Shown piece after piece: positions 1,173-53,334 of a stretch of DNA of 64,000 nucleotides. The DNA comes from Patescibacteria group bacterium (GTDB lineage: Bacteria > Patescibacteriota > Patescibacteriia > Veblenbacterales > UBA10138): assembly GCA_041645215.1 (NCBI GenBank), contig JBAZQK010000003.1:45723-109722 (forward strand). Direction: 5' to 3'. Positions within the stretch are counted from its first letter, which is position 1; each line of letters begins with the position of its first letter. The translations under genes were made by a program, and so were the position numbers. Under the pieces are notes generated by a model. That model searched no databases, was not told the DNA's origin, and worked only from the letters and a program-made list of their open reading frames with translations.

Positions 1173-1429
1173 AAATAAATCAAAATGAAAATATCAAAAT
1201 GAAAAATGACAAAGCAAAATTATAAAAATTCCAAATCTTAAATCCTAATACCTTCCGCCAGCACGCCCCGCCGAATGGCGGGCAGGTTTATAGCCCGAGC
1301 GTATTTAAGACAGCGGCTTTGGCAGGCCCCGCTCAAGCTTGGGCAGGCGGGACTTGTACTTTTGATTTTTGACTTTTGAGCTTTGATTTTCCATATTGTA
1401 ATTTTGCATTTTGATTTTTCAATTTTACA

Positions 1430-3382
1430 TTATCTAACCACCACGCCCTTGCCCTGCGCCCCCAAATCATCGTCTAACTCGGTAGTAACAAATTTAGCGG
1501 TGGCAATTAAATCAGCGCCGGATACTGAATCACGAGCCGTGGCGGTGGTGGTTTTGGTCAGCACCAAAATTTTATCAGCATCGCTCTCCTCCGGCGTTAC
1601 CGCCAGCTCAAACCAAGCTTCGGGCTTGGTAAAAGTTATGCCCGCCCCGGCGGGCAAACGATTTAGCCGCCAACTAACCTCACGCGTGTTGGAATTATAA
1701 GTTACGGCTTGACCAGCCGAAACCGTCGTTTGCCCGGTCCAATTAACCCCCGCTGGCAAAGTGGCCGTTACTTCCATGTTTTCCAAATCATTAAGCGTAT
1801 TGCCCAACTGCCAGAATACGATGTAAGTAGTGGTTTGCCCAACCCGCGGCGGCAAAGGACCTGACCCCAGCTTAACCAACTGATCAGTATAATACCGGCC
1901 CTCAACCGCCAACGACATCAGCGAACTAAATTTGGTTTCTATTTGATTTGATTGCAGACTTATCGTTTGTAAATTGTTGTCAATCACCTGCTTAGCCTCG
2001 CCCGTCACTTGAGTCATAAAACTAACAGGTGATTTGGCTCCCCGCGGCAGACTAGTTACCGTATTAATTCGCCAAGTCAAAGTAACGCGCGATTTAGATT
2101 GAACGATTTTTAAAAATGGTACGGAGTCGCCCGACCAAGTAATCGTACCGGCGGTCTTATCCAACTGTCCGCCAAAATCGTCCCGCCAACTTGACCAATC
2201 TAAATAAACGGTTGACAACTGGACTTTAAGTTTAAAATCGCTGTAAGACAAATCGCCGTTATTAACAACGGCTAATTCGTATTTTATTTCCTGTCCGAGC
2301 GTCGCCTGACTTTTTAAACTGACATCATTAGCCGTCAGATTAAGACTTAATTGCGAACCTAATACCGCTACCTGCCAAACCTTTTCCTCTTGCACCGAAA
2401 ACACCTTATCGGTTCCGCCCCAAAAACCAATCGCCACACCGAGTGACTGGTCGCCAACCTGACTGGCTGAAGAAAATTTTCCTTTGAGTTCAAACTTGCC
2501 ATCGCCCTGCGGCTCAAGGTCTCTCAACCGCCAAACATTGTTTTGTCCACTTTCAGCCTCTAACGACGGCACTTCCAAATCAAAACCGCCGGGCAGATTA
2601 AGCCGCAACCGCAACCCGACTAACTTAGCCGTTGAACTATTATGATACTTAACCGCTAACGTAACCGGCTGATCAACCGCCACCTTAGCTAAGCCGGCCA
2701 AATCTAAATTAATGGCCGAGGCTACCAGCTTGGTGCTAAAACTTAAAGTTTTAGTAAATTGAGCTTTGATGTTGTTGGGCTCATAAACCACCAAAGCCGA
2801 AATTTTCTTATCGTCATTAAGGTCGCCAATCAGCTGACCGCGTATGGTTAATGCGCCAACTTGATTAGGACCAACGCCGGGAATAATAAAACGCGTTGTC
2901 TCCTGGTTGTCAGGCTGTAAACTGGCGTCCGCAAAAGTAAAACCGTCGGGATAACGTAAATTTATTTCAACCTGTTTTAAGCCAATCGCCTGATTATTGG
3001 CATAGGACAGGGTGTATTCCACCACCTGGCCAGACGGCAACTCGCTGGGCGCTGTTAATTTAAACTGCACGGCCTCTTCGCCAAACCTCGCCGGATTCCG
3101 CCCCAACCACAACCAACTGCCAATCGCGCCAATTATAAGAAAAACCAGTGCTGACATAATATAACCCCAACGACGGTGGCGGCGCGAACCGGCTATCAAT
3201 TTTGACAAATCAGCCACCGCCTGTTGGCGATAGATTTCATCCCATTTGGGTGTGGCGTTGGAATTAGTTAAATTATTAGATGACGACGGAGAATCGTCGG
3301 CATCATTGTAACTAATGGTAATATCATTAACTTGGCTTTTTTTCATACCCAGTATATCAACTTGGCTTAACCACCTCAGCAC
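1430..3382 (-). CDS. Large surface/cell-envelope protein with an N-terminal membrane anchor (about 640 aa)
   Basis: 650-aa ORF. The hydrophobic helix IMSALVFLIIGAIGSWLWL is followed by an extracytoplasmic region predicted to be beta-rich. The first 12 codons of the track ORF are encoded by the first unit of the upstream tandem repeat, so the real start is probably the internal ATG (MKKSQV) near 3346. Confidence 0.6.
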   Translation of the reverse strand: MLRWLSQVDILGMKKSQVNDITISYNDADDSPSSSNNLTNSNATPKWDEIYRQQAVADLSKLIAGSRRHRRWGYIMSALVFLIIGAIGSWLWLGRNPARFGEEAVQFKLTAPSELPSGQVVEYTLSYANNQAIGLKQVEINLRYPDGFTFADASLQPDNQETTRFIIPGVGPNQVGALTIRGQLIGDLNDDKKISALVVYEPNNIKAQFTKTLSFSTKLVASAINLDLAGLAKVAVDQPVTLAVKYHNSSTAKLVGLRLRLNLPGGFDLEVPSLEAESGQNNVWRLRDLEPQGDGKFELKGKFSSASQVGDQSLGVAIGFWGGTDKVFSVQEEKVWQVAVLGSQLSLNLTANDVSLKSQATLGQEIKYELAVVNNGDLSYSDFKLKVQLSTVYLDWSSWRDDFGGQLDKTAGTITWSGDSVPFLKIVQSKSRVTLTWRINTVTSLPRGAKSPVSFMTQVTGEAKQVIDNNLQTISLQSNQIETKFSSLMSLAVEGRYYTDQLVKLGSGPLPPRVGQTTTYIVFWQLGNTLNDLENMEVTATLPAGVNWTGQTTVSAGQAVTYNSNTREVSWRLNRLPAGAGITFTKPEAWFELAVTPEESDADKILVLTKTTTATARDSVSGADLIATAKFVTTELDDDLGAQGKGVVVR

Positions 3383-3998
3383 GAACGTGACTAGACAAGA
3401 ATAAATGATTAAATAATTTTAGATAAGACATAAAGTTATAATAGCTGGTGGTTAGGGCGAGTGCTAGCCAAGTTGTATTACTGGGCATACCCAGTATATC
3501 AACTTGGCTTAACCACCTCAGCACGAGCGTGACTAGACAAGAATAAATGATTAAATAATTTTAGATAAGACATAAAGTTATAATAGCTGGTGGTTAGGGC
3601 GAGTGCTAGCCAAGTTGTATTACTGGGCATACCCAGTATATCAACCCCGTAGAATCACGGCGGATACATCGATCAACCGTAATGTCCGGATTAATTGTAA
3701 GTAATTTGCGATTTTCATAAATATTGATTGTCCGCCGTAACTCTACGGGGTCAACTTGGCTTAACCACCTCAGCACGAGCGTGACTAGACAAGAATAAAT
3801 GATTAAATAATTTTAGATAAGACATAAAGTTATAATAGCTGGTGGTTAGGGCGAGCCCAGAACCAAGAGCTATATAGGAAGTACTGATATTATTGCTATC
3901 CATTATTGGTAAGTAATGTGTTCCCGTGGCGATGCGAGGGTACCGTGCTTGCTCTGGTGCTGGGCGAGTGCTAGCCAAGTTGTATTACTGGGCATACC
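3345..3998. repeat. Three tandem copies of a unit of about 135 bp (promoter/5' region of the surface-protein gene). The third copy carries two different insertions of about 105 bp.
   Basis: The unit is catacccagtatatcaacttggcttaaccacctcagcacga[a/g]cgtgactagacaag...ttgtattactgggc. The insertion at 3646-3750 has terminal inverted repeats ccccgtaga/tctacgggg and a tcaac target duplication. The insertion at 3856-3963 is flanked by the direct repeat gggcgag. Confidence 0.85.
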
Positions 3999-5552: not shown

Positions 5553-6746
5553 TTAAAATGATAAATACTTGGCAAACAACAACGCCAATTTAGGATATTT
5601 ATATATTAATTCATAACGGTAGTTAAAAAATACCTCAAAAGCATCCGCTGGATCCACACTTTGAAATCTATACATCAACTTATCAAGATCCTCATCTGTA
5701 AATTTACGATAAAGCGCCTTACCAATACGATATGAAATATTCCATCGCCAACCAAACAAATTACGCCATTCGTTTTCATACTTTTGCTCTAAACTAACAA
5801 TATCGGTACTACTCTTCAATGCTTGATCAATACATTTTGCGGCTAATTGACTTGTTTTAAAAGCATGCCTAATACCTTCAAATGCTAAGGGATTAACTTG
5901 AGAAGCCGCATCTCCAATCATAATAATATTTTTATAGGCGTGATATTTAACACCGGGCGAAATAAAACCACCACCACCGTGAATTTCTATTGGCTCTAAA
6001 TGATTAGAGACATCAAATTTGCCCATAAAACTCCTAAGCAACTGCTTTAATTCAGTATTGTTTGGCAGTCTACCCCATGACCCGATGCCTATCTTACATG
6101 CCCGACTCTCCTCCATGGGAAATATCCAAGCATAGCCTTGTGGTGCTACCTTGCCAAAATACAAGGCTACTGTTTTTTCAAAACCACTCGGCATACCAGA
6201 CAATTGCAGTTCAAGGGCGCTAGCTAAATCATCAGATTGTGTTTGGTTTAACTTTAAAAAAGAATTAGCAAACCCCCAGTGCCCGGTGGCGTCCACAATA
6301 TATTTGGCTCGCAACTCACCTTCGCCAAATATGCCCTTATATTTTAGGCCAACGATATTACTGCCCTCTTTAATAAACTCCGTGGCCGCCGCTCCCACCA
6401 TCGTATCGGCACCGTGACGCGCCGCGTCTTCAGCCAAAAACTTTTTAAGCGCCGCAAAATCAAACACATAACCGCGCGTCTCGGGATAAGTCCATTCGGC
6501 CACTTCATGGGTGGAGGCAAAATAAATCCGATTCCAAGTGGCGGAAAGAACTTTGGCTGGTAAATCAAATTCCTCAATAGTTTCGCGCGGCGTACCAGCC
6601 GTGGAATAATTCGGCTGACCAATCTCCTGCGAATGTTCTAGTAAAATAACCTTTCTACCCGCCTTAGCCAACTCACGCGCGCACTGTCCGCCCGCCGGTC
6701 CGGCGCCGATGACTATAACGTCGTAAAGCTTATTATCATTGGTCAT
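5553..6746 (-). CDS. FAD-dependent oxidoreductase, geranylgeranyl reductase family
   Basis: N-terminal Rossmann FAD-binding motif YDVIVIGAGPAGGQCARELAKAGRKVILLE. Length (397 aa) and overall pattern match digeranylgeranylglycerophospholipid/geranylgeranyl reductases. Confidence 0.7.
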   Translation of the reverse strand: MTNDNKLYDVIVIGAGPAGGQCARELAKAGRKVILLEHSQEIGQPNYSTAGTPRETIEEFDLPAKVLSATWNRIYFASTHEVAEWTYPETRGYVFDFAALKKFLAEDAARHGADTMVGAAATEFIKEGSNIVGLKYKGIFGEGELRAKYIVDATGHWGFANSFLKLNQTQSDDLASALELQLSGMPSGFEKTVALYFGKVAPQGYAWIFPMEESRACKIGIGSWGRLPNNTELKQLLRSFMGKFDVSNHLEPIEIHGGGGFISPGVKYHAYKNIIMIGDAASQVNPLAFEGIRHAFKTSQLAAKCIDQALKSSTDIVSLEQKYENEWRNLFGWRWNISYRIGKALYRKFTDEDLDKLMYRFQSVDPADAFEVFFNYRYELIYKYPKLALLFAKYLSF

Positions 6747-7078: not shown

Positions 7079-10000
7079 CTAGGATATTTCCACACTCACT
7101 GCCTCGCCTTCTATTTCCAGCTTGTTATCATACTCCTCTTGGCTGATATTAATTTCCTTAGACAAAGTGGATTTGAGTAAATTATCACGGTGATTAAAAA
7201 GTATGGCGGCTATTTTTTCAGTAGCTCCAACTTTCAACATAATCCGATCGTTAATCGTTAACCCCCGCTGCTTGCGCAAGGCATTTACCTGCCGCGAAAA
7301 TTCGCGTATTAAACCGAGCGCTTTTAGCTCATCATCAATTTCTGTATTTAAAACTACCGACAATTCCCCTGCTTCCTCGCAAACTACTTCTAATACATTT
7401 ATTTCATCGGCCAAAATTGCCTTCATTTCCTCGGCCAAAATCAAACCCTTCACGGTAACCACCCGCAAAGCCTGACGAACTTTTATTTTAGCTGCCGCCC
7501 GCTGAGCTAAAACCGTTTCTACTACTTGTCTTAGTTTTGACATCTTAATCAAAAGTTCTGGATCGTCATTATCGGCATACAAAGATGGCCATTCTGCTAA
7601 ATGCACCGACTCTAATTCTCCTCCAACCCGACGATAAATATGCTCTGACAAAAAAGGTACAAAAGGAGACATTATTTTTGATAAATTAAGTAAAACATGT
7701 CGTAAGGTATTTAGGGCTTCCATTTTTCTATTCTCTTGTTTAAATCTATCGCGGCTGCGGCGCACATACCAAACCGATAAATCAGTAATAAACTCCTCTA
7801 TCTTCCGTCCCGCTTCTGTCACCTTATAGTTTTCTAGATATTCTGTTACTTCGTCCAATAATTTATACCACATTGCCAATATCCACCTATCTAATACATG
7901 AGTAACTTGCGGCACTTGCCGTGTACCGTCGCTCGCCTTTGGGCGAGCGACTGGTACACGGTACAATTCATAAAACATCACCACATTCATTAAAATCAAA
8001 AATGTTTTTTTTACCACGGCCTCAACATCTTTGGGGTCAAAATTCTTAGGTTCGCCCGGCTGGCTAGCCGTATAAAAATAAAACCGCAAAGCATCAGTCC
8101 CGTATTGATTGATAATTTCCCAGGGGTCAATAATATTGCCCTTGGATTTAGACATTTTTTGGCCATATTTGTCGTTTATATGCCCCAAACAAATAACATT
8201 CCGGTAAGGCGGAATCTCGCCGATGGCGCCGGCTTTTTTAAGCAAAGTCGCCACCGCCAGCAGAGTGTAAAACCAACCGCGGGTTTGATCTATGGCTTCA
8301 GCAATAAATTCAGCCGGATAATGGTCTGGCAATTGCTGGGCGCTACCCGCAGTCGCCGGATAACCCCACTGGGCAAACGGCATACTGCCACTGTCAAACC
8401 AACAATCAGCCACCTCCGGCACGCGCCGCATTTCCCCGCCACACTTACAAGCCAAAACAATCTCGTCAACATAAGGCCGGTGCGGATCAAAATTTTGACT
8501 TTTTCCGCCAGCACGCCCTGCCAAAGACGAGGCTCCGCCGAATGGCGGGCCGAGGGAGGCGGATCCGCCTTGGGCGGAGATTTTTGACTTTTGACTTTCG
8601 TTGGCTAAATCAGACAACTCCTGAAAACTGCCAACGCATATCTGATTGCTGCAGTCTCCACATATCCATATGGGTAATGGCGTACCCCAATAGCGCTCGC
8701 GCGAAATGGCCCAATCTTTTACCCCGTCCAGCCATTCGCCAAACCGACCTTGCTTAATATGCTCGGGATACCAATTGATTATCTCGTTAGCCGCTTTTAA
8801 ATCCTCCCGCAAAGCTGACATTTTTATAAACCACGATAGTTTGGCATAATACAGAAGCGGCGTATCGCAACGCCAACAATAAGGATAATCATGAGTGTAC
8901 ATTTCTTGCTTAAACAACAAACCGCGCTCTTTTAAATCCTCCACGATTCCTTGCTCCACTTCTTTATCCTTAACAAACTTACCAGCCCATTTGGCAACAT
9001 CTTTGGTAAAATAACCATTCTCGTCAACCGTATGAAACTTGGGCAAGCCGACTTGACCGCCTAAATTAAAATCGTCCTCGCCGTACATTACGGCCGTGTG
9101 TACCACGCCGGTGCCATCCATAGTGGTGACGAAATCCGCGGCATACACGCGGTGTGATTTTTCGTTCTGGAGCGGTTTGATGTCGAATAACGGTTCATAT
9201 TCTAAACCAACTAACTCACTACCTCTCAATAGCCGTATGTTTTTAAATAAAACATTACCTTTCCCCTTAAAATTAGTACTACCCCATGTCAAATCATCTT
9301 CGTGTGGGTGAGGACTATAACCTAAAGTACTCTCAAAAACATTCGTAAATGCGGAACGGGCCAATATAAATACTTCACCTTTTTGTATATCAGAAACATC
9401 TGACGTTTCAACCTCTAACATTAGGTAATCAATATCAGCACCAATTGCGAGCGCTACATTCCCCGGTAAAGTCCAAGGTGTAGTCGTCCAAGACAAAATA
9501 TATGTATTATTTTCAATTTTGACTTTTTCCGCCAGCACGCCCCGCCAAAGGCGAGGCTCCGCCAGGTGGCGGGCCGAGGGAGGCGGATCCGCCTTGGGCG
9601 GAGACTTTTGACTTTTGACTTTGAACTTAATATAAACTGACGGTTCAGTAATTTCTTTATACCCTTGGGCCACTTCGTGGCTGGATAGGGCCGTACCGCA
9701 ACGCGGACAATGCGGCACCACTTTATAATCTTGGTACAACATTCTTTGCCAGCCCTCACCCGGACATTCATCACTGACTCTAAATTCATTCTCTGGCTCC
9801 ATGACTGGCTGACTGTCTGACTGGCTAACCCACGTACGCCAGATTTGCTTAAAAATCCACCACAAACTTTCAATGTAATAAGGCTGATAAGTAATATAGG
9901 GCTTTTCCAAATCCAGCCAATAGCCAATGCGTTCGGTTAATTTTTCCCACTCATTTTGATATTTCCAGACGGCGGCCTTGCATTTACTATTAAACTCCTC

Positions 10001-10318
10001 CACCCCGTACTGTTCTATGTCTGACTTGCCTTTAAACTTCAACTCTTTCTCAACCTGCAGTTCCACGGGTAACCCTTGGGTATCCCAACCGGCTTTACGG
10101 TCAACCTTAAATCCCCGCATGGTTTTGTAACGCGGAATTAAATCCTTAAACGCCCGCGCTAGCACGTGATGCAAGCCCGGCTTGCCATTGGCTGTCGGCG
10201 GCCCTTCAAAAAAAACAAACTTGCCCTGTGGGGCCGGCTTGGCCAGGGTCTTGGCAAAAATTTTATGTTCTTTCCAAGAAGCTAGGATTTTGTCCTCCAG
10301 TTCAGAAAACTTTATCAT
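7079..10318 (-). CDS. ileS: Isoleucyl-tRNA synthetase carrying two in-frame repeat-element insertions
   Basis: Class I aaRS HIGH-region (PPTANGKPGLHHVLARAFKD), KMSKS motif (KMSKSKGN), the CP1 editing motif TTTPWTLPGN and a C-terminal Zn-binding region. Two segments of about 35 aa (near 8493-8598 and 9517-9623) are encoded by a dispersed GC-rich repeat. Confidence 0.95.
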   Translation of the reverse strand: MIKFSELEDKILASWKEHKIFAKTLAKPAPQGKFVFFEGPPTANGKPGLHHVLARAFKDLIPRYKTMRGFKVDRKAGWDTQGLPVELQVEKELKFKGKSDIEQYGVEEFNSKCKAAVWKYQNEWEKLTERIGYWLDLEKPYITYQPYYIESLWWIFKQIWRTWVSQSDSQPVMEPENEFRVSDECPGEGWQRMLYQDYKVVPHCPRCGTALSSHEVAQGYKEITEPSVYIKFKVKSQKSPPKADPPPSARHLAEPRLWRGVLAEKVKIENNTYILSWTTTPWTLPGNVALAIGADIDYLMLEVETSDVSDIQKGEVFILARSAFTNVFESTLGYSPHPHEDDLTWGSTNFKGKGNVLFKNIRLLRGSELVGLEYEPLFDIKPLQNEKSHRVYAADFVTTMDGTGVVHTAVMYGEDDFNLGGQVGLPKFHTVDENGYFTKDVAKWAGKFVKDKEVEQGIVEDLKERGLLFKQEMYTHDYPYCWRCDTPLLYYAKLSWFIKMSALREDLKAANEIINWYPEHIKQGRFGEWLDGVKDWAISRERYWGTPLPIWICGDCSNQICVGSFQELSDLANESQKSKISAQGGSASLGPPFGGASSLAGRAGGKSQNFDPHRPYVDEIVLACKCGGEMRRVPEVADCWFDSGSMPFAQWGYPATAGSAQQLPDHYPAEFIAEAIDQTRGWFYTLLAVATLLKKAGAIGEIPPYRNVICLGHINDKYGQKMSKSKGNIIDPWEIINQYGTDALRFYFYTASQPGEPKNFDPKDVEAVVKKTFLILMNVVMFYELYRVPVARPKASDGTRQVPQVTHVLDRWILAMWYKLLDEVTEYLENYKVTEAGRKIEEFITDLSVWYVRRSRDRFKQENRKMEALNTLRHVLLNLSKIMSPFVPFLSEHIYRRVGGELESVHLAEWPSLYADNDDPELLIKMSKLRQVVETVLAQRAAAKIKVRQALRVVTVKGLILAEEMKAILADEINVLEVVCEEAGELSVVLNTEIDDELKALGLIREFSRQVNALRKQRGLTINDRIMLKVGATEKIAAILFNHRDNLLKSTLSKEINISQEEYDNKLEIEGEAVSVEIS

Positions 10319-11072: not shown

Positions 11073-11306
11073 CTCCGGACTAAATTTTTTAGATCAAAAC
11101 TGCTGCCAAGAGCTCCAACTCTCGCGGCAGTTATTTATTTATTAGAAATTAGATATTAGATATTAGAAATTAAAAATTCTACCTACCCACGCACTATAAA
11201 GCTACCAATTTCTACCATAATCCAAATTTATTGCTGGTCGCTTTAAGTGCGGGGTCTCGCGCTCTAATAACAACAGCCAAAAAGATAATTTTAATTTATA
11301 GAACGC

Positions 11307-15173: not shown

Positions 15174-15358
15174 AACAATAAATAATCAATAAATTTATAA
15201 TTTTAGGACTTACGCGTTTGCCGTCATCCTGAAGCTGATGTCCATCGGCTGAAGGATCTCGGCTTATATCTAAGCGATTTTCGAATGAGATTCTTCTCCC
15301 GCCGCTGGCGGGATCAGAATGACACAAAAAGCCTGAATCGCGTAAGTCCTAAATTTAA
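15174..15358. repeat. MITE-like nested inverted-repeat element inserted between infC and rpmI
   Basis: Outer inverted repeats ttaggacttacgcgtttg ... cgcgtaagtcctaa enclose inner inverted repeats gtcatcctgaa ... tcagaatgac and a ccgccgctggcggg hairpin. The same motifs recur at 6770-7078, 19440-19515, 34819-34912, 53112-53334, 53950-54129 and 57311-57399. Confidence 0.7.
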
Positions 15359-15922
15359 TTACACTACTGGCTGAACCTTAGCCTTACTCGGCTCAATTTT
15401 CTTTTTGCCAATTTGCATACTCATTCGACCACCCTGACGACCAATTGGCACTTCCACAAAAACACCCTCGCCCAAATCATTAATAAATTTGTTAAATCCC
15501 TCAACCGCGATATCGGCGTGAGCTCGCTCGCGGCCGCGCAAAACCATTTCCAGACGCACCTTATGGCCTTCGCTCAAAAACTTTTGCGCCTGTTTAAGCC
15601 TGACATTGCGATCATGCTCGCCAATTTTAAAAGAAATCCGCACGCCCTTAACTTCAATTTTTTTGGCCTTTACCTTTTGGGCTTGCGCAATTTTTTGCTG
15701 CTTATATTTAAATTGCCCAAAATCCATAATTTTGGTTATGGACGGACGTTGAGTGGGATTAACCTCTACTAAATCCAAGCCCTTTTCGTGGGCGAGCAAC
15801 AAAGCTTGTGAGGTCGGCATAACGCCGAGTATTTTTCCAGTATCATCTATGACCTGAACTTCGGGTAAACGAATATATTGATTCACGCGATAGCGTGGTC
15901 GGTTTCTATTATCGTAACGCAA
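15359..15922 (-). CDS. infC: Translation initiation factor IF-3
   Basis: IF3 N- and C-domain signature (RLPEVQVIDDTGKILGVM ... KGVRISFKIGEHDRNVRLKQAQKFL) and position upstream of rpmI-rplT. The true start may be a non-ATG codon, as is usual for infC. Confidence 0.9.
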   Translation of the reverse strand: MRYDNRNRPRYRVNQYIRLPEVQVIDDTGKILGVMPTSQALLLAHEKGLDLVEVNPTQRPSITKIMDFGQFKYKQQKIAQAQKVKAKKIEVKGVRISFKIGEHDRNVRLKQAQKFLSEGHKVRLEMVLRGRERAHADIAVEGFNKFINDLGEGVFVEVPIGRQGGRMSMQIGKKKIEPSKAKVQPVV

Positions 15923-16051
15923 ATGATTGTAACTAATGATTAGTAAATAGAATGTGTCATCCTGAAGCCGATGTCCATCGGCTTCAGGATGACAGGCTAT
16001 AATAATTTTTCACAAAGTTATGCGAATCCGCCGCGGCGGATGAGCTTTACA

Positions 16052-16440
16052 TGGTGGAGGTGACGGGGGTTACACCCGTGTCTAGTTAATTAAACCTAAA
16101 TTTGGCTCCAGGCTCAGTGCCCGCTAATTACCGACGCGCCAATCAAGCGGCACAAAAGTTGGCGTGCGGGTTGTCCTATAATTACTCGTCGCTATAAATA
16201 GGACAGCTTAACAGCGCGAGACTCGATAAATGACGTTCCGTATAAGTTATCGAGTGTCACTTAAGGGAACGGCTCTGACCAATATTAGGCCAAGGCTGGG
16301 GCAAAGCTCAATCCCGCCAAGGCGGAACGAACCTTGCTAACAAATGTATTAGCATTTGTGTAGGTGCAGCTTTTTTACGAAGACTGCGGCTTCGACCTGC
16401 TAAACTTAAGTTAAAGAACTATCGAATTATAAACACCCCC
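16052..16440 (-). ncRNA. ssrA: tmRNA (SsrA)
   Basis: Located by eye next to smpB. The 5' end is GGGGGUG... followed by a UUCGAU motif. The 3' end reads GGGUGUAACCCCCGUCACCUCCACCA, a T-arm plus acceptor with an encoded CCA. The 7-bp acceptor stem GGGGGUG/CACCUCC includes a G3:U70 wobble, the alanine identity element. An internal ORF ends ...AGLSFAPALA-UAA and may be the tag. Length is about 389 nt. Confidence 0.7.
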
Positions 16441-16489: not shown

Positions 16490-16942
16490 TTACCCTTTGA
16501 TTCTTAAAGAACTTCTAATCTCGCGATTAAGTTCGCGTTTTTTTAAAGTCTCGCGCTTGTCATGTTTGGTTTTACCGCGCGCCAGACCGATTTCAACCTT
16601 AATTAACCTGTGCCTAGTATAAACAGAAAGTGGTACTAGTGTCAAGCCTTTTTCCTTAATTTTGCCGAATAAATGAGACAACTCACTAAATTTAAGCAAC
16701 AGCTTGCGGTCGCGAGCCGGGTCATAACTGGCCTGGGTTGTTTTGGCTGGTAAATAAGGCGCAATATTAACGCCAGTCAGCCACAGCTCGCCCATTTTAG
16801 GTATAACAAACGAGCCGTGCAGATTGATTCGCCCGCCCTTGGCCGACTTAACCTCCGCCCCAGTCAGCACTAAACCAGCCTCGAATTTCTCCAGGATAGC
16901 GTAATCGTGCAGGACACGCTTGTTATCTGCCAACCTACCCAT
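16490..16942 (-). CDS. smpB: SsrA-binding protein SmpB
   Basis: RVLHDYAILEKFEAGLVLTGAEVKS...GLTLVPLSVY...RGKTKHDKRE is canonical SmpB. Length is 150 aa. Confidence 0.95.
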   Translation of the reverse strand: MGRLADNKRVLHDYAILEKFEAGLVLTGAEVKSAKGGRINLHGSFVIPKMGELWLTGVNIAPYLPAKTTQASYDPARDRKLLLKFSELSHLFGKIKEKGLTLVPLSVYTRHRLIKVEIGLARGKTKHDKRETLKKRELNREIRSSLRIKG

Positions 16943-28107: not shown

Positions 28108-30579
28108 TCACGCAATAACCTTGATATATTTAGAATCAATATAATTAACAAATGAACTACGGCTCATTGGCCGATTATATGAATCAAAACTACTGTAAGA
28201 AATAAATACTTTACTTTTAGCACGCGTCATCGCCACATAAAAGAGCCGTTTTTCTTCCTCAAGATCACTTGCTTTGTATACAGGGAATTTAGATTCATTC
28301 ATTCCAACAATAAAAACATAATCAAACTCCAAGCCCTTGACTTGATGCACGGTTACAATGGGAATTTTACCCTGATCTAAACCCAAAAAATGTATATCCT
28401 TAACAAGAGAAGAATAATGAATCAATTCTCGGATAACTATATCAGCCGGACGCTCTAAATCATCTCGTTCTTTGAATATAGTAATAAGCGTTTCAATTGA
28501 TTTAAAGCGTTGTTCTTTAGCCGCATCCGTTTCATAATAATTCTTTAATCCAGAATTCTCCCAGATATAGCGAAGCGCGTCGGCCGGCCGTTTTTCTTTT
28601 ACTAATTTTTCCCAATTCCCAATCAAAGAGCTAAGTTGGATAAATTTTTTAAAAAATTCTTTAAAGAGTTTGGCGCGCTGATCCTGATGTTCCTTAAGTT
28701 TATTAACTAAAACACCTAATAAACCAACGGTTGCCGCGACGTCGTCTTTAGCATCATGAGTAGCGGTGGCTAAATTAAGCTTGGTGGCCAAAGTACTTAA
28801 TTTATAATTTTCTGATTCTATAAATCTTTTAGCCAAATCCAAAGTATCATAATATTCTATAATATCAAACTGAATTCCCTGACGCTTGCCGTTCTCTATA
28901 ATCATAGAAATATCAAATGTAATGTTGTGGCCAACCACTATATCCTCGCCAATAAACCGCTTTAATTCCAGTAGCACCTCTTTAGGATCGCGACCATCAC
29001 TTTGCAAAAACTCATCAGTAATACCATGCACCTCTTCGGAAAAACTCACAGGGATTGTATTCTTAAGGTGATAATGAAAATCCCCAGCCGGTTTACCGTT
29101 AATAACTTCGCTGGCGTATATTTGAATAATCTCATCTTTTAACACATTAGTACCAGTGGTTTCAATATCAAGTACAACGATTCTGCCTTTATTATGTCTA
29201 CTAATCAGATTACTAAACGGCTCATCAAAACGATAACTTCTAAAATTAAGGAAATCAGAAACTTTCAAACCAACAGTTGCGCCACGTTCACGAATAGCTT
29301 TTAAAGTCGCAGTACCAATATTGCGCGTAGGCCTTAAAACCAAACGAGAGGTGCTCTCTAAATCAAATTTATTAAAAATAACTTTTAGATAGGCATATAC
29401 ATCTTTTACTTCTTGCCTGCGAAAAAAATCATACTTATCCACGGTAATATGGGCAATATTTTTAGCTTCAAAAACTTCCGCTATTTGGCTAATTAAATAA
29501 TTAGCCCTAGTAAGCACCGCGATTTTTGCTCCAGATTCGGCGTCTCGAAGATTATTTATATTTTCAATAACCCAATCAACCTCTTCGTGCAGATTATGAC
29601 CGCCAAATAATTCAATGCATTTACTATTGCCAGACTCTGGCCGCAGAGATATGATTTTCTTGGTAGCTGACTTTTGTAAACTGGTTAAAAATGACTTAAC
29701 GGCATTTAAGATGGGCGCGCTAAAACGATAATTAATTTCCAAATGCAGCTCCTGAACGGGAGCGAAATGACTGCGAAAAATTTTAGTTATTAAATATGGT
29801 TCCGAACCACGCCAACCGTAAATTGTTTGATCAAGATCGCCAATAAGAGCGATGTTTTTATGAACTTTTGCCAACTCTTTAACCACCAAATATTCAGAAA
29901 GGTGCGTATCCTGAAACTCATCCAACTGAATGAATCTATATCGTTTTGACCATTTATTTTTTACCTTCTCATTGGTATACAAAGTTTTTAAAGTAACAAT
30001 AACCAACTCATTAAAATCGAGGGCATTTTGTTCGCGTAAGGCTGAAATATACTGCTCGCCAATTTTAATTAATACTTCATCCAAGACAATTGGCTTTAAA
30101 TTGCAACCAATCTCTCTCTCCACAAGATTTAGACGATAATCATACAATTGCTCAACTAGATCAAATATTCGTCGGTTATCATTTATGTAAGCGGACGAAA
30201 TCTCAGGATAACGTTCAAGAATATTTTTTATAGACTCTAGTTGGTCAGTATCGTCAAAAATAACAAAATCGGCAGGAATACCAATTTGTTTAGCTTCAAC
30301 TTTAATGAAATAAGCGCAAAAACCGTGAAAGGTCTTTAAGGTTAAGCCATCGAAAATTTCTTTTTTACCTATTCTCTTTTTAATTCTTTCGGCCATTTCC
30401 TCCGCGGCGCGGTTAGTAAAAGTTAAACAAAGAATTTCTTCGGGTTTAATACCAGAATCAAGGGCTGTCATTACACGTTCAGCAAGTACAGTTGTTTTAC
30501 CGGTGCCAACCGGAGCTGAAATTAAATACGCGCCACCGGTGGCGTCAATAATCTTTTTTTGAAGTTCATTAAATTTCAT
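28108..30579 (-). CDS. UvrD/PcrA-like SF1 helicase with an inserted DEDDh (DnaQ-like) 3'-5' exonuclease domain
   Basis: Helicase motifs I (APVGTGKTT), Ia (TFTNRAAEEM), II (DEFQDT), III (GDLDQTIYGWRGS), IV (YRFS), V (VTVHQVKGLEFDYV) and VI (YVAMTRAK). Exo I (VVLDIETTG), Exo II (VGHNITFDISM) and Exo III (HDAKDDVAAT) lie between helicase motifs IV and V, which is the 2B-domain position. Confidence 0.85.
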   Translation of the reverse strand: MKFNELQKKIIDATGGAYLISAPVGTGKTTVLAERVMTALDSGIKPEEILCLTFTNRAAEEMAERIKKRIGKKEIFDGLTLKTFHGFCAYFIKVEAKQIGIPADFVIFDDTDQLESIKNILERYPEISSAYINDNRRIFDLVEQLYDYRLNLVEREIGCNLKPIVLDEVLIKIGEQYISALREQNALDFNELVIVTLKTLYTNEKVKNKWSKRYRFIQLDEFQDTHLSEYLVVKELAKVHKNIALIGDLDQTIYGWRGSEPYLITKIFRSHFAPVQELHLEINYRFSAPILNAVKSFLTSLQKSATKKIISLRPESGNSKCIELFGGHNLHEEVDWVIENINNLRDAESGAKIAVLTRANYLISQIAEVFEAKNIAHITVDKYDFFRRQEVKDVYAYLKVIFNKFDLESTSRLVLRPTRNIGTATLKAIRERGATVGLKVSDFLNFRSYRFDEPFSNLISRHNKGRIVVLDIETTGTNVLKDEIIQIYASEVINGKPAGDFHYHLKNTIPVSFSEEVHGITDEFLQSDGRDPKEVLLELKRFIGEDIVVGHNITFDISMIIENGKRQGIQFDIIEYYDTLDLAKRFIESENYKLSTLATKLNLATATHDAKDDVAATVGLLGVLVNKLKEHQDQRAKLFKEFFKKFIQLSSLIGNWEKLVKEKRPADALRYIWENSGLKNYYETDAAKEQRFKSIETLITIFKERDDLERPADIVIRELIHYSSLVKDIHFLGLDQGKIPIVTVHQVKGLEFDYVFIVGMNESKFPVYKASDLEEEKRLFYVAMTRAKSKVFISYSSFDSYNRPMSRSSFVNYIDSKYIKVIA

Positions 30580-31613: not shown

Positions 31614-31679
31614 ATAGTTGCTTGTCCCATTAGATAATTCTTCAGTCTTTGTTTAACATAACGCTTGCCCCACGCGGCT

Positions 31680-31877: not shown

Positions 31878-31883
31878 AAATAT

Positions 31884-34028: not shown

Positions 34029-34209
34029 AAATACAAATCAAAATGCAAATATCAAAAATCAAAATTACATTTACACTTTTCGTGCCCGAGGCAGATCCGC
34101 CTTGGGCGGAGATTTTTAAATTTTAAACTGTATTTATATTCTACATCATTTAACCCAAATAAAAAATCCGCCCGGCTGGATAGTGGGACCGACTTTGACT
34201 GCCAACTAT

Positions 34210-40739: not shown

Positions 40740-41840
40740 CTAAGGACAAGTTTCGCTAATATTACCTTTGAGAATTGAACACTGCGAAAAAATCGTATAA
40801 TCAAAAACATCAGACGACGGGGCGAACTGCGGCACGGTAATAGACAAGGCCTGACGCGTATCAGCTTGCTGACCCGTAGTTGAAATTGTGATACGGGCGG
40901 GCAAAGCATACACACTGCCGTTACCATCAGTCTCGCTGTAAGCAGTTAACTGCAAATTACAAATACCGCCGTATAAAGCTTTTAACCGCAAACGGTAATT
41001 GACATAATTCGGCTGGCCCACGTTATTGATATTAATAATGACGGCTTGACCGGGACTGGCGGCAATTTGACTGTGATTAATATAACGCCGCTGAACGTCA
41101 AAATCCGACGCCGCTCCGCCCCACGATGACCAGGATAGTTCCAACCACTCCTGTCCTTGATTAACACAGGCGGTTGCGGTTGGATCCCAACTTATTTTTA
41201 ATGATTTTGCCTTTGGACTGTCGTCCAGTGAAGCGGCGGGGTCAAACAAATCAATTTGTTTAACTTCGTCCGGTTTTAAAGTAGTTATAAGAGTTGATTG
41301 GGTTTCCTGGCTGTCGCGCCACCACTGCCCTTGACTGCTAATCAAACTGACCGGGCTGGATGAGGAAACCGTCAACTGACTGCCCTTTAACCCTTCCTGT
41401 CGCCATAAATACAAACCCTGCTCCAAACCGCTTTCGGCGGCATAATAAGCCACCACTGCCCGATCGGCCGAAGTTGTAAGGCGCAACTGGCGCATGACCA
41501 AACTGCCGACTGTCAAACTGGTAACCAAAATCGTCGCCAAAGCCAACAACGCCAATAGCAATACCATCCCCTGATTATCACCCTTCGCCCCCAATACCCT
41601 GCGGTCTCCAGGCCGCAAAGGATGAATGGCGAGGATGATGGGGCTGTAGTTTTTCCGCCAAAGGCGAATCAGCCACCCTCGGCCTGCCATTCGGCGGAGC
41701 CTCGCCTTTGGCGGGGCGTGCTGGCTGAAGCGGGACGAGGGGAGTAGGTAAAAAAGGCTACGGGTGATGAATCCTAAAATAGAGGATACCCGGTGGTCTT
41801 GCCACCGGGAGAATTCATTTTTTTCTCTTGTATAAAACAT
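40740..41840 (-). CDS. PilX-like minor pilin/pilus-associated protein. The real start is probably the internal ATG (MVLLLALLAL) near 41570.
   Basis: A hydrophobic N-terminal helix is followed by a PilX_N-like motif (AVVAYYAAESGLEQGLY). The N-terminal 90 codons of the track ORF are read through a copy of the GC-rich dispersed repeat at 41610-41765. Confidence 0.55.
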   Translation of the reverse strand: MFYTREKNEFSRWQDHRVSSILGFITRSLFYLLPSSRFSQHAPPKARLRRMAGRGWLIRLWRKNYSPIILAIHPLRPGDRRVLGAKGDNQGMVLLLALLALATILVTSLTVGSLVMRQLRLTTSADRAVVAYYAAESGLEQGLYLWRQEGLKGSQLTVSSSSPVSLISSQGQWWRDSQETQSTLITTLKPDEVKQIDLFDPAASLDDSPKAKSLKISWDPTATACVNQGQEWLELSWSSWGGAASDFDVQRRYINHSQIAASPGQAVIININNVGQPNYVNYRLRLKALYGGICNLQLTAYSETDGNGSVYALPARITISTTGQQADTRQALSITVPQFAPSSDVFDYTIFSQCSILKGNISETCP

Positions 41841-41843
41841 AGA

Positions 41844-42488
41844 TTAGCGACGGTAAATTCGGCTAACGACTGAAGTTTGCAAGAAAAAACTGACTGGCGC
41901 GTCAAGCGGCGAATTGGGCAGTGCCTGGGCGCTTATTACAATTGTAAGGCGCGGCTGCTCATTGGGCGCCGCCGCTGACAACGCGAACGGATCAGTATCA
42001 GGCACGATATAAAACTGGACCAAGTTTAGTTTTATATTATCCGACAGCAAAGATTGCCAGTTATCAACCTCGCCCCGGCTAACCTGCAATTGTAAAACAC
42101 CGCCCCCCACGTCCGCGACTCGCCAACGGACCGCGCCGCCGGCCGGATCACGCAAGGCTAATATCGAAGCGGCTTGCACCTGACTGCCCGTTTTTAAACT
42201 TAGGTTGTTGCTAACATAATAATCATAATCAATTGAATCCTGGCGCATTTGCTGCACCATGGTATCAACGGCAAATCTCATGTCACGCTGAACTGATTGG
42301 CTGGCAACTAATTTGCGATGGGCGCGCGTCGCCGTAAAAAAAATATCAGTCGCCGCCACCATCACCAGCGAAAAAACAGCCAACGCCACGATCATTTCCA
42401 TGGTGGTGAAAGCCGGCCGCCAACCTTCTCTAATTTTGGGGCGCGCTTGGTATAGTCGCATATCGCCAATTATATAAAAAATCCTCAA
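41844..42488 (-). CDS. Type IV pilin-like minor pilin (PilW-like). The real start is probably the second ATG, near 42461.
   Basis: Class III signal-peptide motif G|FTTMEMIVALAVFSLVMV, with Glu at +5. Confidence 0.65.
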   Translation of the reverse strand: MRIFYIIGDMRLYQARPKIREGWRPAFTTMEMIVALAVFSLVMVAATDIFFTATRAHRKLVASQSVQRDMRFAVDTMVQQMRQDSIDYDYYVSNNLSLKTGSQVQAASILALRDPAGGAVRWRVADVGGGVLQLQVSRGEVDNWQSLLSDNIKLNLVQFYIVPDTDPFALSAAAPNEQPRLTIVISAQALPNSPLDAPVSFFLQTSVVSRIYRR

Positions 42489-48233: not shown

Positions 48234-48366
48234 AAAATGAAGCCTCCACGGGCTCATCCAGCCTTCGTCCTCCTTGGGAGGAGGGTTGGGGGTTGTATTA
48301 TTTTTAGTGAATTAAAACATTAAGAAAAAGTTGCCTGTCGCGAGGAGTGTATATGTTATCACTAAT

Positions 48367-52951: not shown

Positions 52952-53334
52952 ATAATCAACAAGTTAATGATTAATAACTAAAGTCTATATCAAAGAGTAG
53001 CATAATTACCTTAATAAATTCAAGCACCTTGACCCGCCAACGGCGGTGGCTTGTCCCGCTTCAGCCAGCACGCCCCGCCGATTCGGCGGGGTATTTTGGC
53101 GAAAGGTGATAAACGCGTAAGTCCTATATAAGCAAAGAACAAGCCCTTTTTAGGAGGACTTGTTCTCTAAATTAAATCAGTATAGGACCTACGCACTTCG
53201 TCATCCTGAACTCGATTCAGGATCTCTATCAAGGACTAATGTTAGCCAAGGTTAGATTCTGATCCGCCAGTGGCGGACAGAATGACGGCTGCAAAAATAC
53301 CACATTCTGTGTCAAGTGCGTAAATCCTACAGTA

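What the first reader, a model, noticed from the sequence alone, without database searches (positions are those of the whole stretch)
8493..9623. Two copies of a GC-rich dispersed repeat inserted in-frame into the essential ileS gene and apparently translated in different frames
Segments of about 105 bp at 8493-8598 and 9517-9623 are near-identical to each other and to intergenic copies elsewhere in the window. The core reads ccagcacgccccgccaaaggcgaggctccgccRRatggcgggccgagggaggcggatccgccttgggcggag, flanked by ttttgacttttgacttt. Both copies lie inside the ileS ORF without interrupting it. They encode peptides of about 35 aa (...KSQKSPPKADPPPSARHLAEPRLWRGVLAEKVK... and ...SQKSKISAQGGSASLGPPFGGASSLAGRAGGKSQNF...). 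These peptides fall at surface-loop positions of IleRS, before the TTTPWTLP editing-domain motif and in the Zn-binding region before KMSKS. The two copies are read in frames offset by one nucleotide, and both are free of stops. This resembles the Rickettsia palindromic elements that insert into coding genes, but here it occurs in a very different lineage.
Basis: seen in the sequence. Interest (0 to 1): 0.8.

Follow-up and report, generated by a model that had tools for sequence, protein, structure and literature searches.

The report
Hairpin repeats translated inside ileS
Two copies of a 75-base GC-rich hairpin repeat found across ultra-small Patescibacteria sit in-frame inside the essential isoleucyl-tRNA synthetase gene, where they most likely become floppy surface loops, much like the selfish palindromic elements of Rickettsia.

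Summary
Windows 8491-8598 and 9515-9622 are 94% identical, lie inside an intact 1079-aa IleRS ORF (7079-10318, minus strand), and are read in frames offset by one base.

The inserted unit is exactly 75 nt (25 aa), at 8504-8578 and 9528-9602. The flanking ttttgactttt runs are not part of it. They are host A-rich heptamer arrays also present in orthologs that lack the insert.

A 98%-identical strain has the first insert but lacks the second. About 110 other orthologs lack both.

The unit is a 15-nt hairpin plus a 60-nt three-way junction. Its outer stems covary and its 45-nt core is nearly invariant. It recurs in Kerfeldbacteria, Komeilibacteria and other contigs, mostly intergenic and often near tRNA genes. 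A 30-nt short form is dispersed too, including in viral contigs.

Related in-frame insertions occur in holA, tgt and two other IleRS sites. AlphaFold places both inserts in the only disordered loops of a confident model.

Best reading: a REP/MITE-like non-autonomous hairpin repeat, tolerated in-frame, working like a Rickettsia palindromic element. The mobiliser is unknown; a RAYT-like Y1 transposase is only a lead. Translation is inferred, not shown.

The parts
7079..10318 (-). ileS ORF (IleRS, 1079 aa), intact, host of both inserts
   Evidence: ORF. Homologs with Pfam tRNA-synt_1/Anticodon_1. PDB IleRS matches at E = 1e-216. dN/dS = 0.20 against the strain L001.
9528..9602 (-). Long-form element, copy B (IleRS site 1, aa ~239-264, read as PPKADPPPSARHLAEPRLWRGVLAE). 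Hairpin 1 is 9588-9602; the three-way-junction module is 9528-9587.
   Evidence: CM score 88.9 bits. Removing exactly these 75 nt restores FKVKSQKSKVKIENNTY, collinear with P0032 FKIKNQKSKIKIDENTY. AF2 pLDDT < 50 at aa 246-265. The PDB alignment breaks at aa 238-268.
8504..8578 (-). Long-form element, copy A (IleRS site 2, aa 581-605, read as SAQGGSASLGPPFGGASSLAGRAGG). Hairpin 1 is 8564-8578; the module is 8504-8563.
   Evidence: CM score 83.9 bits. It is the only gap in the L001 vs window ileS alignment. AF2 pLDDT < 50 at aa 582-607. The PDB alignment breaks at aa 573-608.
9603..9623 (-). Host heptamer array 5' of copy B in gene sense: (C)AAAGTC AAAAGTC AAAAGTC
   Evidence: P0032 carries an equivalent (AAAAATC)4 array at the same loop without any GC core.
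9514..9527 (-). Host heptamers 3' of copy B in gene sense: AAAAGTC AAAATTG
8579..8599 (-). Host heptamer array 5' of copy A in gene sense: GAAAGTC AAAAGTC AAAAATC
   Evidence: The empty allele in L001 reads GAAAGTC AAAAATC AAAAATC|AAAAGTC AAAATTT, the same number of heptamers, so there is no target-site duplication.
8490..8503 (-). Host heptamers 3' of copy A in gene sense: AAAAGTC AAAATTT
41654..41728 (+). Long-form element, copy C, with a compensated outer stem (TCAGCC/GGCTGA). Lies between gene 41844..42488(-) and the likely real start of the pilin-like gene 40740..(-). Probably non-coding.
   Evidence: CM score 85.9 bits; sequence. It would be read in the Arg-rich frame of a doubtful N-terminal extension. 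No Pfam support for the extension.
34081..34110 (-). Short-form (double-hairpin) relative, intergenic. Its flanks AAAAATC^...^AAAAGT match those at the ileS sites.
1254..1298 (-). Diverged, partly deleted relative (…CCCGCCATTCGGCGGGGCGTGCTGGCGGA), intergenic, next to heptamer arrays at 1182-1213 and 1360-1426
   Evidence: (13 bits).
53061..53113 (-). Diverged relative sharing GGCGGGGCGTGCTGGCTGAAGCGGGAC with copy C and its flank, intergenic

Best explanation
The two ileS segments are copies of a small, non-autonomous, hairpin-forming dispersed repeat of Patescibacteria. It is REP/BIME- or MITE-like, and it behaves like a Rickettsia palindromic element.

Anatomy (shown):
- The family is built from 15-nt GC hairpins of the form TCCGCC-NNN-GGCGGA.
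- The short form is two such hairpins (30 nt).
- The long form (75 nt) is the short form with a 45-nt, two-hairpin core sitting in the loop of the second hairpin. This makes a three-way junction.

Insertion (shown for boundaries, inferred for mechanism):
- Copies appear with sharp boundaries and no target-site duplication.
- In this genome they sit at the junction between units of A-rich heptamer arrays (AAAARTC^AAAAGT). Elsewhere they sit in loops of other palindromes.
- This pattern suggests single-strand or hairpin-directed insertion by a trans-acting enzyme. A RAYT/IS200-type Y1 HUH transposase is the leading candidate, but this is inference only.

Survival in coding DNA (inferred):
- Every form is a multiple of 15 nt.
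- The GC-rich sequence has few stop codons.
- Only the frames that give Ser/Ala/Gly- or Pro/Ala/Asp-rich peptides are retained.
- The landing sites are variable surface loops.
- The insert is therefore transcribed and translated as a disordered 25-aa loop, and IleRS stays functional.

Population level: alleles with and without the site-2 insert coexist and are exchanged by homologous recombination.
For: Boundaries:
- Exact 75-nt indel with no duplication against a 98%-identical strain.
- Removing 75 nt restores collinearity with distant orthologs at both sites.

Dispersed family:
- 3 strong copies in the window, and 17 more hits among 19 loci, all at 75-89 bits; nothing else exceeds 17 bits.
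- Genome and metagenome scans find it in Kerfeldbacteria, Komeilibacteria and other contigs.
- Similarity between copies ends at the element edges.

Structure:
- 92% of cells paired vs 36-49% when partners are slid.
- Compensatory changes in 3 of 6 outer-stem pairs and in hairpin 1; 0 of 500 shuffles reach the observed score.

Modularity:
- The 30-nt short form has the identical junction TCCGCCTC^TGGCGGA in unrelated genes and genomes, and it occurs in viral contigs.

Other in-frame cases:
- holA carries long and short forms.
- tgt carries a short form.
- IleRS of P0003, P0002 and P0104 carry forms at three sites or junctions.

Tolerance:
- AF2 mean pLDDT is 86.7. The only segments below 50 are the two inserts and a third lineage-specific segment.
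- The PDB alignment breaks exactly at the inserts.
- ileS dN/dS = 0.20.

Frames:
- 0 of 9 in-ORF copies use the Arg-rich third frames.

Candidate mobiliser:
- A Y1_Tnp gene on L019 (PF01797, E = 3.6e-7) has short forms at its 3' end.
- The family has 1861 homologs, is single-copy in conserved synteny, and is labelled RayT by JGI.
Against: - No transposase was found among 54 window ORFs.
- RAYT orthologs in two other lineages have no TCCGCC hairpins within 3 kb. They carry other palindromes instead.
- The NCBIfam RAYT score is below cutoff: 20 vs 80 bits.
- The site-2 presence/absence polymorphism sits in a recombination tract: 27 of 67 differences fall in 300 nt. It therefore does not demonstrate recent transposition.
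- The 45-nt core is almost invariant across lineages, and the site-1 copy has no substitutions between strains with dS = 0.058. This is unusual for junk and hints at selection on the sequence itself.
- Outside ileS only one of 16 long-form loci (holA) is clearly coding.
- Translation and mobility have not been observed directly.
Confidence: 0.65

Rival explanations
1. The element is primarily a functional nucleic-acid motif whose sequence is under selection. It could be a structured RNA or a protein-binding DNA hairpin involved in tRNA-operon processing, transcript stability or antisense termination. The ileS copies would be accidental or exapted insertions of that motif.
For: - The 45-nt core is near-invariant in lineages whose IleRS is only 50-60% identical, and there are no intermediate-diverged copies.
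- Stem covariation is present.
- 6 of 16 non-ileS long-form loci lie within 300 nt of tRNA genes, and one abuts the CCA end.
- There are zero substitutions in the site-1 copy ±30 nt between strains with dS = 0.058.
- On the strand antisense to ileS, hairpin 1 followed by GATTTTT scores as terminator-like.
Against: - Orientation relative to neighbouring genes and tRNAs is mixed: 5 antisense and 1 sense.
- Copies occur inside ORFs in both orientations.
- No Rfam family matches, even at E <= 10.
- Flanks are typically T-rich 5' and A-rich 3', the reverse of a terminator.
- Invariance of the inner helices is partly an ascertainment effect of the exact 28-nt search pattern.
- Copy A carries a stem-breaking change.
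Confidence: 0.2
2. The copies spread by homology-driven gene conversion between A-rich heptamer arrays, not by a transposase. The array on each side provides 13-21 nt of homology to a donor copy with the same flanks.
For: - Three copies in the window share the flanks AAAARTC^...^AAAAGT: both ileS sites and 34081-34110.
- The two ileS copies are similar over 108 nt including flanks.
- There is no target-site duplication.
- The strain polymorphism lies in a recombination tract.
Against: - Copy C and most copies in other genomes have unrelated flanks with sharp element boundaries.
- Copy A differs from copy B at 5 of 75 positions. Its ATTC loop matches copy C and other genomes rather than copy B.
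- Identical short/long junctions inside hairpin loops are not explained by flank homology.
Confidence: 0.1
3. The segments are removed before the protein functions, as an intron-like or intein-like intervening sequence, so they are not part of mature IleRS.
For: None directly. The elements fold stably as RNA, at -42 to -48 kcal/mol with z = -1.8 to -3.1.
Against: - 75 nt / 25 aa is far below the size of group I/II introns or inteins.
- No Rfam intron or ribozyme match.
- All variants at these loops (75, 30, 15 nt) keep the reading frame and avoid the Arg-rich frames, which is only expected if they are translated.
- The same element is mostly intergenic.
Confidence: 0.03
4. The segments are ancestral or lineage-specific low-complexity loops of IleRS, or assembly artefacts, unrelated to mobile DNA.
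For: Both loops are variable in length among orthologs and carry heptamer-encoded K/S/Q/N-rich peptides in several lineages.
Against: - Near-identical DNA occurs in unrelated genes, intergenic regions and other genomes.
- About 110 orthologs lack the segments.
- The site-1 insert is reproduced in an independent JGI assembly.
- The in-frame 75-nt precision is not what a chimeric assembly produces.
Confidence: 0.02

Closest known systems
Rickettsia palindromic elements (RPEs; Ogata et al. 2000 Science; Ogata et al. 2002 Genome Res; summarised in PMC10969869)
   Same: - Short palindromic dispersed repeats inserted in-frame into unrelated housekeeping genes as well as intergenic DNA.
- The encoded peptide is compatible with protein fold and function.
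- The host has a small, reduced genome.
   Different: - No sequence relationship was shown, and the host phylum is different.
- The elements here are 15/30/75 nt against ~100-150 nt for RPEs.
- They are GC-rich and modular in 15-nt hairpin units, and they nest into hairpin loops.
- The same element is read in at least four different frame/orientation combinations rather than giving one conserved peptide.
- Most long-form copies seen here are intergenic.
REP/BIME/REPIN elements with RAYT (Y1 HUH) transposases (PMC3116915, PMC3337134, PMC5581495, PMC3733652)
   Same: - Short GC-rich imperfect palindromes combined into mosaics.
- No target-site duplication.
- Stems covary between subfamilies.
- Patescibacteria encode a single-copy, syntenic RAYT-like Y1 gene, and in one contig short forms sit at its 3' end.
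   Different: - No GTAG or CGTC head tetranucleotide.
- Copies are not strictly extragenic.
- RAYT adjacency was seen in one lineage only. That RAYT is more densely surrounded by a different palindrome (CCCCGTTAGAA...).
- Cleavage or binding is untested.
Bacterial MITEs that overlap ORFs (Coxiella QMITE1/2, PMC5896051; Neisseria Correia, ERIC, BOX)
   Same: Non-autonomous, short terminal inverted repeats, occasional in-frame fusions or internal insertions in genes.
   Different: - No target-site duplication.
- No parent IS with matching ends was found.
- Much shorter than typical MITEs.
- The terminal inverted repeat is just the 6-bp stem of a hairpin.
PARCELs, palindromic amphipathic repeat coding elements (PMC2996958)
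   Same: A palindromic coding repeat that yields similar peptides in either orientation. Here these are S-A-x-G-G-S-A or P-P-x-A-D-P in both orientations.
   Different: - PARCELs are ~100-120 nt, occur as intragenic tandem arrays and encode amphipathic repeats in surface proteins.
- The elements here are single insertions, Gly/Ser/Pro-rich and predicted disordered.
- They are mostly intergenic.
IS200/IS605-derived palindrome-associated transposable elements (from my own knowledge)
   Same: Hairpin ends, insertion without duplication next to a short specific sequence, single-strand DNA mechanism.
   Different: Orientation relative to the flanking motif is not fixed here, and no TnpA/TnpB-bearing parent was seen.

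Membership tests
Rickettsia palindromic elements (RPE) | Sequence membership in one of the described RPE families, in Rickettsia genomes | not tested
   No RPE library was available. The host is Patescibacteria and the element is half the length or less, so membership is not claimed, only analogy.
Rickettsia palindromic elements (RPE) | Palindromic dispersed repeat inserted in-frame in unrelated protein genes, without disrupting them | tested here: met
   Found in ileS (x2 here; three other IleRS cases), holA and tgt. ORFs are intact, and ileS dN/dS = 0.2.
Rickettsia palindromic elements (RPE) | Inserted peptide lies at the protein surface, compatible with the fold | tested here: met
   AF2 pLDDT < 50 only at the inserts, while the rest of the model is confident. 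The inserts fall in gaps of the alignment to solved IleRS. This is a prediction, not an experiment.
MITE | Terminal inverted repeats | tested here: met
   6-nt TCCGCC...GGCGGA ends, which covary between copies. They are very short.
MITE | Target-site duplication | tested here: not met
   Filled and empty alleles carry the same heptamers, and the gap is exactly 75 nt.
MITE | Parent insertion sequence with matching ends | tested here: not met
   No transposase in the window. No longer element shares the ends in 43 loci. The search space was limited.
REP/BIME-RAYT system | Short (20-40 nt) GC-rich imperfect palindromes in many copies, combined in mosaics | tested here: met
   15-nt hairpin modules combine into 30- and 75-nt forms. 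CCGCC-N3-6-GGCGG occurs 15 times against 0.24 expected in the window.
REP/BIME-RAYT system | Conserved GTAG or CGTC tetranucleotide at one end (PMC3733652) | tested here: not met
   Neither tetranucleotide occurs in either strand of the 75-nt consensus (sequences).
REP/BIME-RAYT system | A single-copy RAYT gene flanked by the cognate REPs | tested here: inconclusive
   - L019/L024 carry a Y1_Tnp gene with short forms in its 3' end and 170 nt downstream.
- Orthologs L030 and L036 have other palindromes and no TCCGCC hairpins.
- None is present in the 64-kb window.
- The NCBIfam RAYT score is below cutoff.
REP/BIME-RAYT system | Extragenic location | tested here: not met
   There are several validated intragenic copies.
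Intron / intein | Catalytic RNA core or protein-splicing blocks; size of at least ~200 nt or ~130 aa | tested here: not met
   The insert is 75 nt / 25 aa, and Rfam gives no match.
Intrinsic terminator | GC hairpin followed by a T-run on the transcribed strand | tested here: not met
   In ileS sense the hairpins are followed by A-rich sequence. Only the antisense strand at 8564-8578 scores. Most copies have T-rich 5' and A-rich 3' flanks.

The most novel reading that the evidence does not exclude
The 45-nt invariant core and its 15-nt hairpin carriers could form a previously undescribed class of nested, hairpin-loop- and heptamer-array-targeting mobile DNA in Patescibacteria and their phages. 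It would be mobilised through single-stranded hairpins by the phylum's conserved RAYT-like Y1 enzyme. Its 15-nt phasing and stop-free, Gly/Ser/Pro-coding frames would have evolved so that it can live inside essential genes. The near-invariant three-way junction would then be a functional recognition structure rather than junk.
Probability: 0.2. Interest if true: 0.8.

Novelty: new variant of a known kind. Interest (0 to 1): 0.6.

Why it matters
- Patescibacteria (CPR) have tiny, streamlined genomes and are not known for repeat-driven protein evolution. I found no report of such elements in them in the held literature.
- This shows an RPE-like process in a second, unrelated reduced-genome lineage. 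It hits essential genes (ileS, holA, tgt) repeatedly and at the same loops.
- It explains part of the unexplained length variation of CPR housekeeping proteins.
- It gives a concrete substrate to test for the widespread but uncharacterised RAYT-like genes of the phylum.
- It warns annotators and phylogeneticists that 5-25-aa GC-rich segments in CPR proteins can be mobile DNA rather than homologous characters.

Tried and rejected
1. Peptide search with a six-frame concatenate of the element against 5.8 billion proteins found nothing at E <= 0.01, not even P0001. Short low-complexity peptides do not reach significance, so that search was wasted.
2. Rfam at gathering and at E <= 10 gave no family for the element. 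Only tmRNA and one tRNA were found in the window.
3. The idea that heptamer arrays are stacked 7-bp target-site-duplication footprints is rejected. Filled and empty alleles have equal heptamer counts.
4. The idea that site 2 is a recent copy of site 1 is unlikely. The two differ at 5 of 75 positions, and the ATTC loop matches other copies.
5. Treating the P0001 empty site as proof of recent insertion or excision is rejected, because the differences cluster in a recombination tract around the site.
6. The terminator reading is rejected, because the flank polarity is wrong in most copies.
7. The search for a transposase in the window found none among 54 ORFs.
8. The long form is absent from IMG/VR viral contigs. 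The short form is present in 6 of them.
9. RAYT adjacency was tested in orthologous loci and is not general.
Full report
**1. The observation**

Windows 8491-8598 and 9515-9622 are direct repeats, 108 nt long and 94% identical (BLAST E = 1e-42). Both lie inside a single uninterrupted ORF, 7079..10318 on the minus strand, 1079 aa. This ORF is an isoleucyl-tRNA synthetase. It has thousands of homologs with tRNA-synt_1/Anticodon_1 domains and matches solved IleRS structures at E = 1e-216.

The copies start 1024 nt apart (1024 mod 3 = 1), so they are read in different frames. Site 1 reads ...KSQKS-PPKADPPPSARHLAEPRLWRGVLAE-KVKIENN.... Site 2 reads ...SQKSKI-SAQGGSASLGPPFGGASSLAGRAGG-KSQNFDPHRP....

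A third full copy lies at 41654-41728 on the opposite strand (88-89% identical).

The lack of stop codons is not informative on its own. The element is 73-77% GC, and 19% of composition-matched shuffles are open in all six frames.

**2. Host organism and orthologs**

The nearest IleRS proteins come from Patescibacteria (CPR): Kerfeldbacteria, Komeilibacteria and Veblenbacteria, at 49-68% identity. One JGI metagenome protein, P0001, is 98% identical.

Most orthologs are 940-1000 aa long. In alignments of 15 and 114 sequences, the window protein has three extra segments. HMMER alignment to solved IleRS (8c8w) breaks at exactly these places: aa 158-192, 238-268 and 573-608.

- P0001 shares the site-1 segment identically but lacks the site-2 segment.
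- Every other ortholog lacks both.
- P0003 has a shortened SAQGGSASGG at site 2, and P0002 has SPPLVG there.

**3. Exact boundaries**

The P0001 contig (L001) is collinear with the window at about 98% identity. Across ileS the alignment is ungapped except for one 75-nt gap, window 8504-8578.

In gene sense the filled allele reads GAAAGTC AAAAGTC AAAAATC [TCCGCCCAAGGCGGATCCGCC...GCTGGCGGA] AAAAGTC AAAATTT. The empty allele reads GAAAGTC AAAAATC AAAAATC AAAAGTC AAAATTT. Three things follow:

- The insert is exactly 75 nt (25 aa).
- It has 6-nt inverted ends, TCCGCC/GGCGGA.
- There is no target-site duplication.

They are tandem A-rich heptamers that encode K/S/Q-rich peptide.

At site 1, deleting the 75 nt gives FKVKSQKSKVKIENNTY. 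This is collinear with Veblenbacteria P0032, FKIKNQKSKIKIDENTY, whose DNA there is (AAAAATC)4. P0009 has (AAAAATC)4 at site 2. P0019 has other heptamers, (GTTCAAA)4 at site 1 and (GAAATCC)n flanking a different GC-rich core at site 2.

Heptamer arrays are therefore a recurrent feature of these two IleRS loops, and they are the landing pad. Such arrays are also common in the window's intergenic DNA.

**4. Anatomy of the element**

The 75 nt comprise hairpin 1 (TCCGCC-CAA-GGCGGA, 15 nt) followed by a 60-nt module. The module folds as a three-way junction:

- an outer stem, TCCGCC/GGCGGA;
- inner hairpin CCGCC-N4-GGCGG;
- inner hairpin GCCTCGCC-TTT-GGCGGGGC.

Across 18 copies, 92% of cells are paired, against 36-49% when partners are slid. 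Three of six outer-stem pairs and one hairpin-1 pair show double compensatory changes (TCCGCC/GGCGGA, TGCGCC/GGCGCA, CCAGCC/GGCTGG, TCAGCC/GGCTGA). None of 500 shuffles reaches the observed covariation score.

The inner helices never vary, but part of that is ascertainment, because copies were collected with an exact 28-nt pattern.

No Rfam family matches, even at E <= 10.

**5. A dispersed family**

Exact-pattern scans found the element on 6 contigs of three MAGs and on 11 JGI metagenome contigs. The MAGs are labelled Kerfeldbacteria, Komeilibacteria and 'Gammaproteobacteria'; I did not check the last label.

Pairwise BLAST shows that similarity between copies from different contexts stops at the element edges.

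A covariance model (R1) scores 75-89 bits for all these copies and for the three window copies. Nothing else in about 210 kb scores above 17 bits. The family is therefore very homogeneous.

Of the 16 distinct long-form loci outside ileS:

- Only one is inside a validated ORF (the holA case in section 7). The other fifteen are intergenic by my ORF checks.
- Six lie within 300 nt of tRNA genes, and one abuts a tRNA-Arg CCA end.
- Orientation relative to the tRNA strand is mixed.

**6. Short form and nesting**

A 30-nt double hairpin, [TCNGCC-AAR-GGCNGA][TCCGCC-TCT-GGCGGA], is itself dispersed in these loci. It also occurs in six IMG/VR viral contigs, whereas the long form is absent from viral contigs.

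The long form equals the short form plus 45 nt inserted at TCCGCCTC^TGGCGGA. That junction is identical in unrelated genes and genomes.

The insert sizes at IleRS site 2 form a series:

- P0003 carries the 30-nt form at the same heptamer junction as the window.
- P0002 carries a single 15-nt hairpin at the neighbouring junction, read in another frame.

In L020 the long and short forms together sit inside the loop of another palindrome, CCCCGTTAGAA...TTCTAACGGGG.

All forms are multiples of 15 nt, so any combination preserves a reading frame.

**7. Other in-frame cases**

- **holA (L020/L018).** The protein matches Pfam DNA_pol3_delta N- and C-terminal domains, with the N-terminal match interrupted. 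It contains the long form in antisense orientation (SQPARPAKGEAPPVGGPREAGQPLADN) plus a short form (FPPEADRPLAE). The same 166-nt composite is intergenic in L019.
- **tgt (L017).** The protein matches Pfam TGT at 2e-143 and contains SAKGGSASGG.
- **IleRS of P0104.** It has SAKGGSASGG at a third site, in the editing domain, with DNA AAGATT^TCCGCCAAAGGCGGATCCGCCTCCGGCGGA^AAAAAT.
- **Y1 transposase ORF (L019).** A short form supplies its last codons.

Nine in-ORF copies use frames that give S-A-x-G-G-S-A or P-P-x-A-D-P peptides. None uses the Arg-rich third frames. If the events were independent, (2/3)^9 = 0.03, but some are not independent.

**8. Tolerance in IleRS**

AlphaFold2 was run with a 114-sequence alignment and gave mean pLDDT 86.7 and pTM 0.82. 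The only segments with pLDDT below 50 are aa 169-174, 246-265 and 582-607. These are the third extra segment and the two inserts.

- Site 1 lies between the strand ending at aa 234 and the YILSWTTTPWTLP start of the editing domain.
- Site 2 lies between C553-x2-C556 and C624-x-C626, upstream of KMSKS.

The gene is under purifying selection between the two strains: dN = 0.012, dS = 0.058, dN/dS = 0.20.

Translation of the inserts is therefore the natural inference. It has not been observed.

**9. History of the polymorphism**

The 67 differences between window and L001 ileS are clustered. Twenty-seven fall in gene nt 1600-1899 around site 2, while long stretches have none. The filled and empty alleles were therefore exchanged by homologous recombination. 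The polymorphism shows the exact boundaries, but it is not evidence of recent transposition or excision.

The site-1 copy and 30 nt on each side have no differences at all.

Copy A has two private substitutions, one of which breaks a pair.

**10. Mechanism**

The features of the family are:

- sharp ends;
- no duplication;
- hairpin termini;
- insertion between heptamer units or into hairpin loops;
- nested mosaics.

These are the hallmarks of REP/BIME/REPIN-type or IS200/IS605-derived elements moved by Y1 HUH enzymes acting on single-stranded DNA (established knowledge; PMC3116915, PMC5581495).

*Evidence for a candidate enzyme.* One contig (L019, recurring as L024-L029) encodes a Y1_Tnp protein (PF01797, E = 3.6e-7). 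Short forms lie in its 3' end and 170 nt downstream. Its family has 1861 homologs at E <= 1e-10, almost all in Patescibacteria. It is single-copy in conserved synteny (ybeY-dgkA-Y1), and JGI names it RayT.

*Evidence against.*
- Orthologous loci in two other lineages have different palindromes and no TCCGCC hairpins.
- The NCBIfam RAYT model scores below its cutoff.
- No transposase is present among 54 ORFs of the window.

The enzyme assignment is therefore a lead, which I put at about 0.3. The mobile-repeat nature of the element is well supported.

**11. Rival explanations**

The strongest rival is that the core is a selected RNA or DNA motif. This rests on near-invariance across lineages, proximity to tRNA genes and stem covariation. 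Against it are the mixed orientation, the coding copies and the absence of any Rfam match.

Gene conversion through heptamer homology could explain the copies in this genome, but not those with unrelated flanks.

Splicing, an ancestral loop and an assembly artefact are effectively excluded. The evidence is in the rival entries of this report.

**12. Comparison and novelty**

Functionally this is the Rickettsia palindromic element phenomenon (PMC10969869) in an unrelated reduced-genome phylum. It also resembles REP/BIME mosaics, ORF-overlapping MITEs (PMC5896051) and PARCELs (PMC2996958).

It fails defining tests for MITE membership (no duplication, no parent IS) and for classical REPs (no GTAG/CGTC head, not extragenic). 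It is not a sequence relative of the Rickettsia elements.

Two full-text searches found no description of such elements in Patescibacteria/CPR.

I rate it a new variant of a known kind, with interest 0.6.

Noticed in passing
window 9743-9847 (-), IleRS aa 158-192: A third lineage-specific extra segment of IleRS, shared only with P0001. It is unrelated to the hairpin element and contains an 8-nt tandem repeat (TGACTGGC)x3.1 at 9802-9826. AF2 pLDDT is below 50 at aa 169-174.
   Followed up: partly
window ~6855, 15299, 34850, 53075, 53264; L001 9783-10000: A recurrent intergenic module: GC hairpin, then CAGAATGAC, then ~20 nt, then GCGTAAGTCCTA. It may be promoter-like. The sister strain L001 carries a 218-nt insertion with this module immediately upstream of the ileS ATG, and the window lacks it.
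   Followed up: partly
window 5553-6746 (-): The FAD-dependent (geranylgeranyl-reductase-like) gene is only 74% identical to the L001 allele, while the flanking DNA is 98% identical. This looks like an allele replacement by recombination.
   Followed up: no
window 3344-3879: A 142-nt repeat with two tandem copies (99%) plus a third at 81%. It is also present at the end of L001.
   Followed up: no
window 1182-1213, 1360-1426, 11141-11178, 34035-34065, 38446-38500, 38641-38663, 56813-56849: A/T-rich heptanucleotide tandem arrays are a general feature of intergenic DNA here. They often bracket GC hairpins, with the A-rich array on one side and the T-rich array on the other.
   Followed up: partly
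window 28108-30579 (-): A UvrD-type helicase with an RNase_T-family exonuclease domain nested inside the UvrD_C domain (aa 468-620).
   Followed up: no
window 44820-49039 and 30918-32483: Three Fic-domain genes with shared intergenic repeats (families D4/D6/D7 at 45885-49805), a HepT/nucleotidyltransferase pair, and an AbiEii/AbiEi pair.
   Followed up: no
window 16052-16440 (-) and 16490-16942 (-): tmRNA (Rfam 88 bits) next to smpB. Repeats D8/I4 (15223-16001) lie just downstream.
   Followed up: no
L019 1530-1780, L024-L029; L020 2710-2910: A second, very dense palindrome family, CCCCGTTAGAA...TTCTAACGGGG, surrounds the RAYT-like gene. In L020 holA this palindrome is itself split by the TCCGCC long and short forms, giving nested repeats inside a coding gene.
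   Followed up: partly
L043 1497-2975: A diversity-generating-retroelement-type reverse transcriptase (RVT_1) with a bAvd gene lies next to ileS in the P0104 genome. A short-form hairpin element sits at the 3' end of the RT gene (2924-2953).
   Followed up: no
L004, L009 (CAYYYA01 contigs): These contigs are labelled 'uncultured Gammaproteobacteria' but carry the Patescibacteria element directly abutting tRNA 3' ends, together with (GACTTTT)n heptamers. The bin label may be wrong.
   Followed up: no
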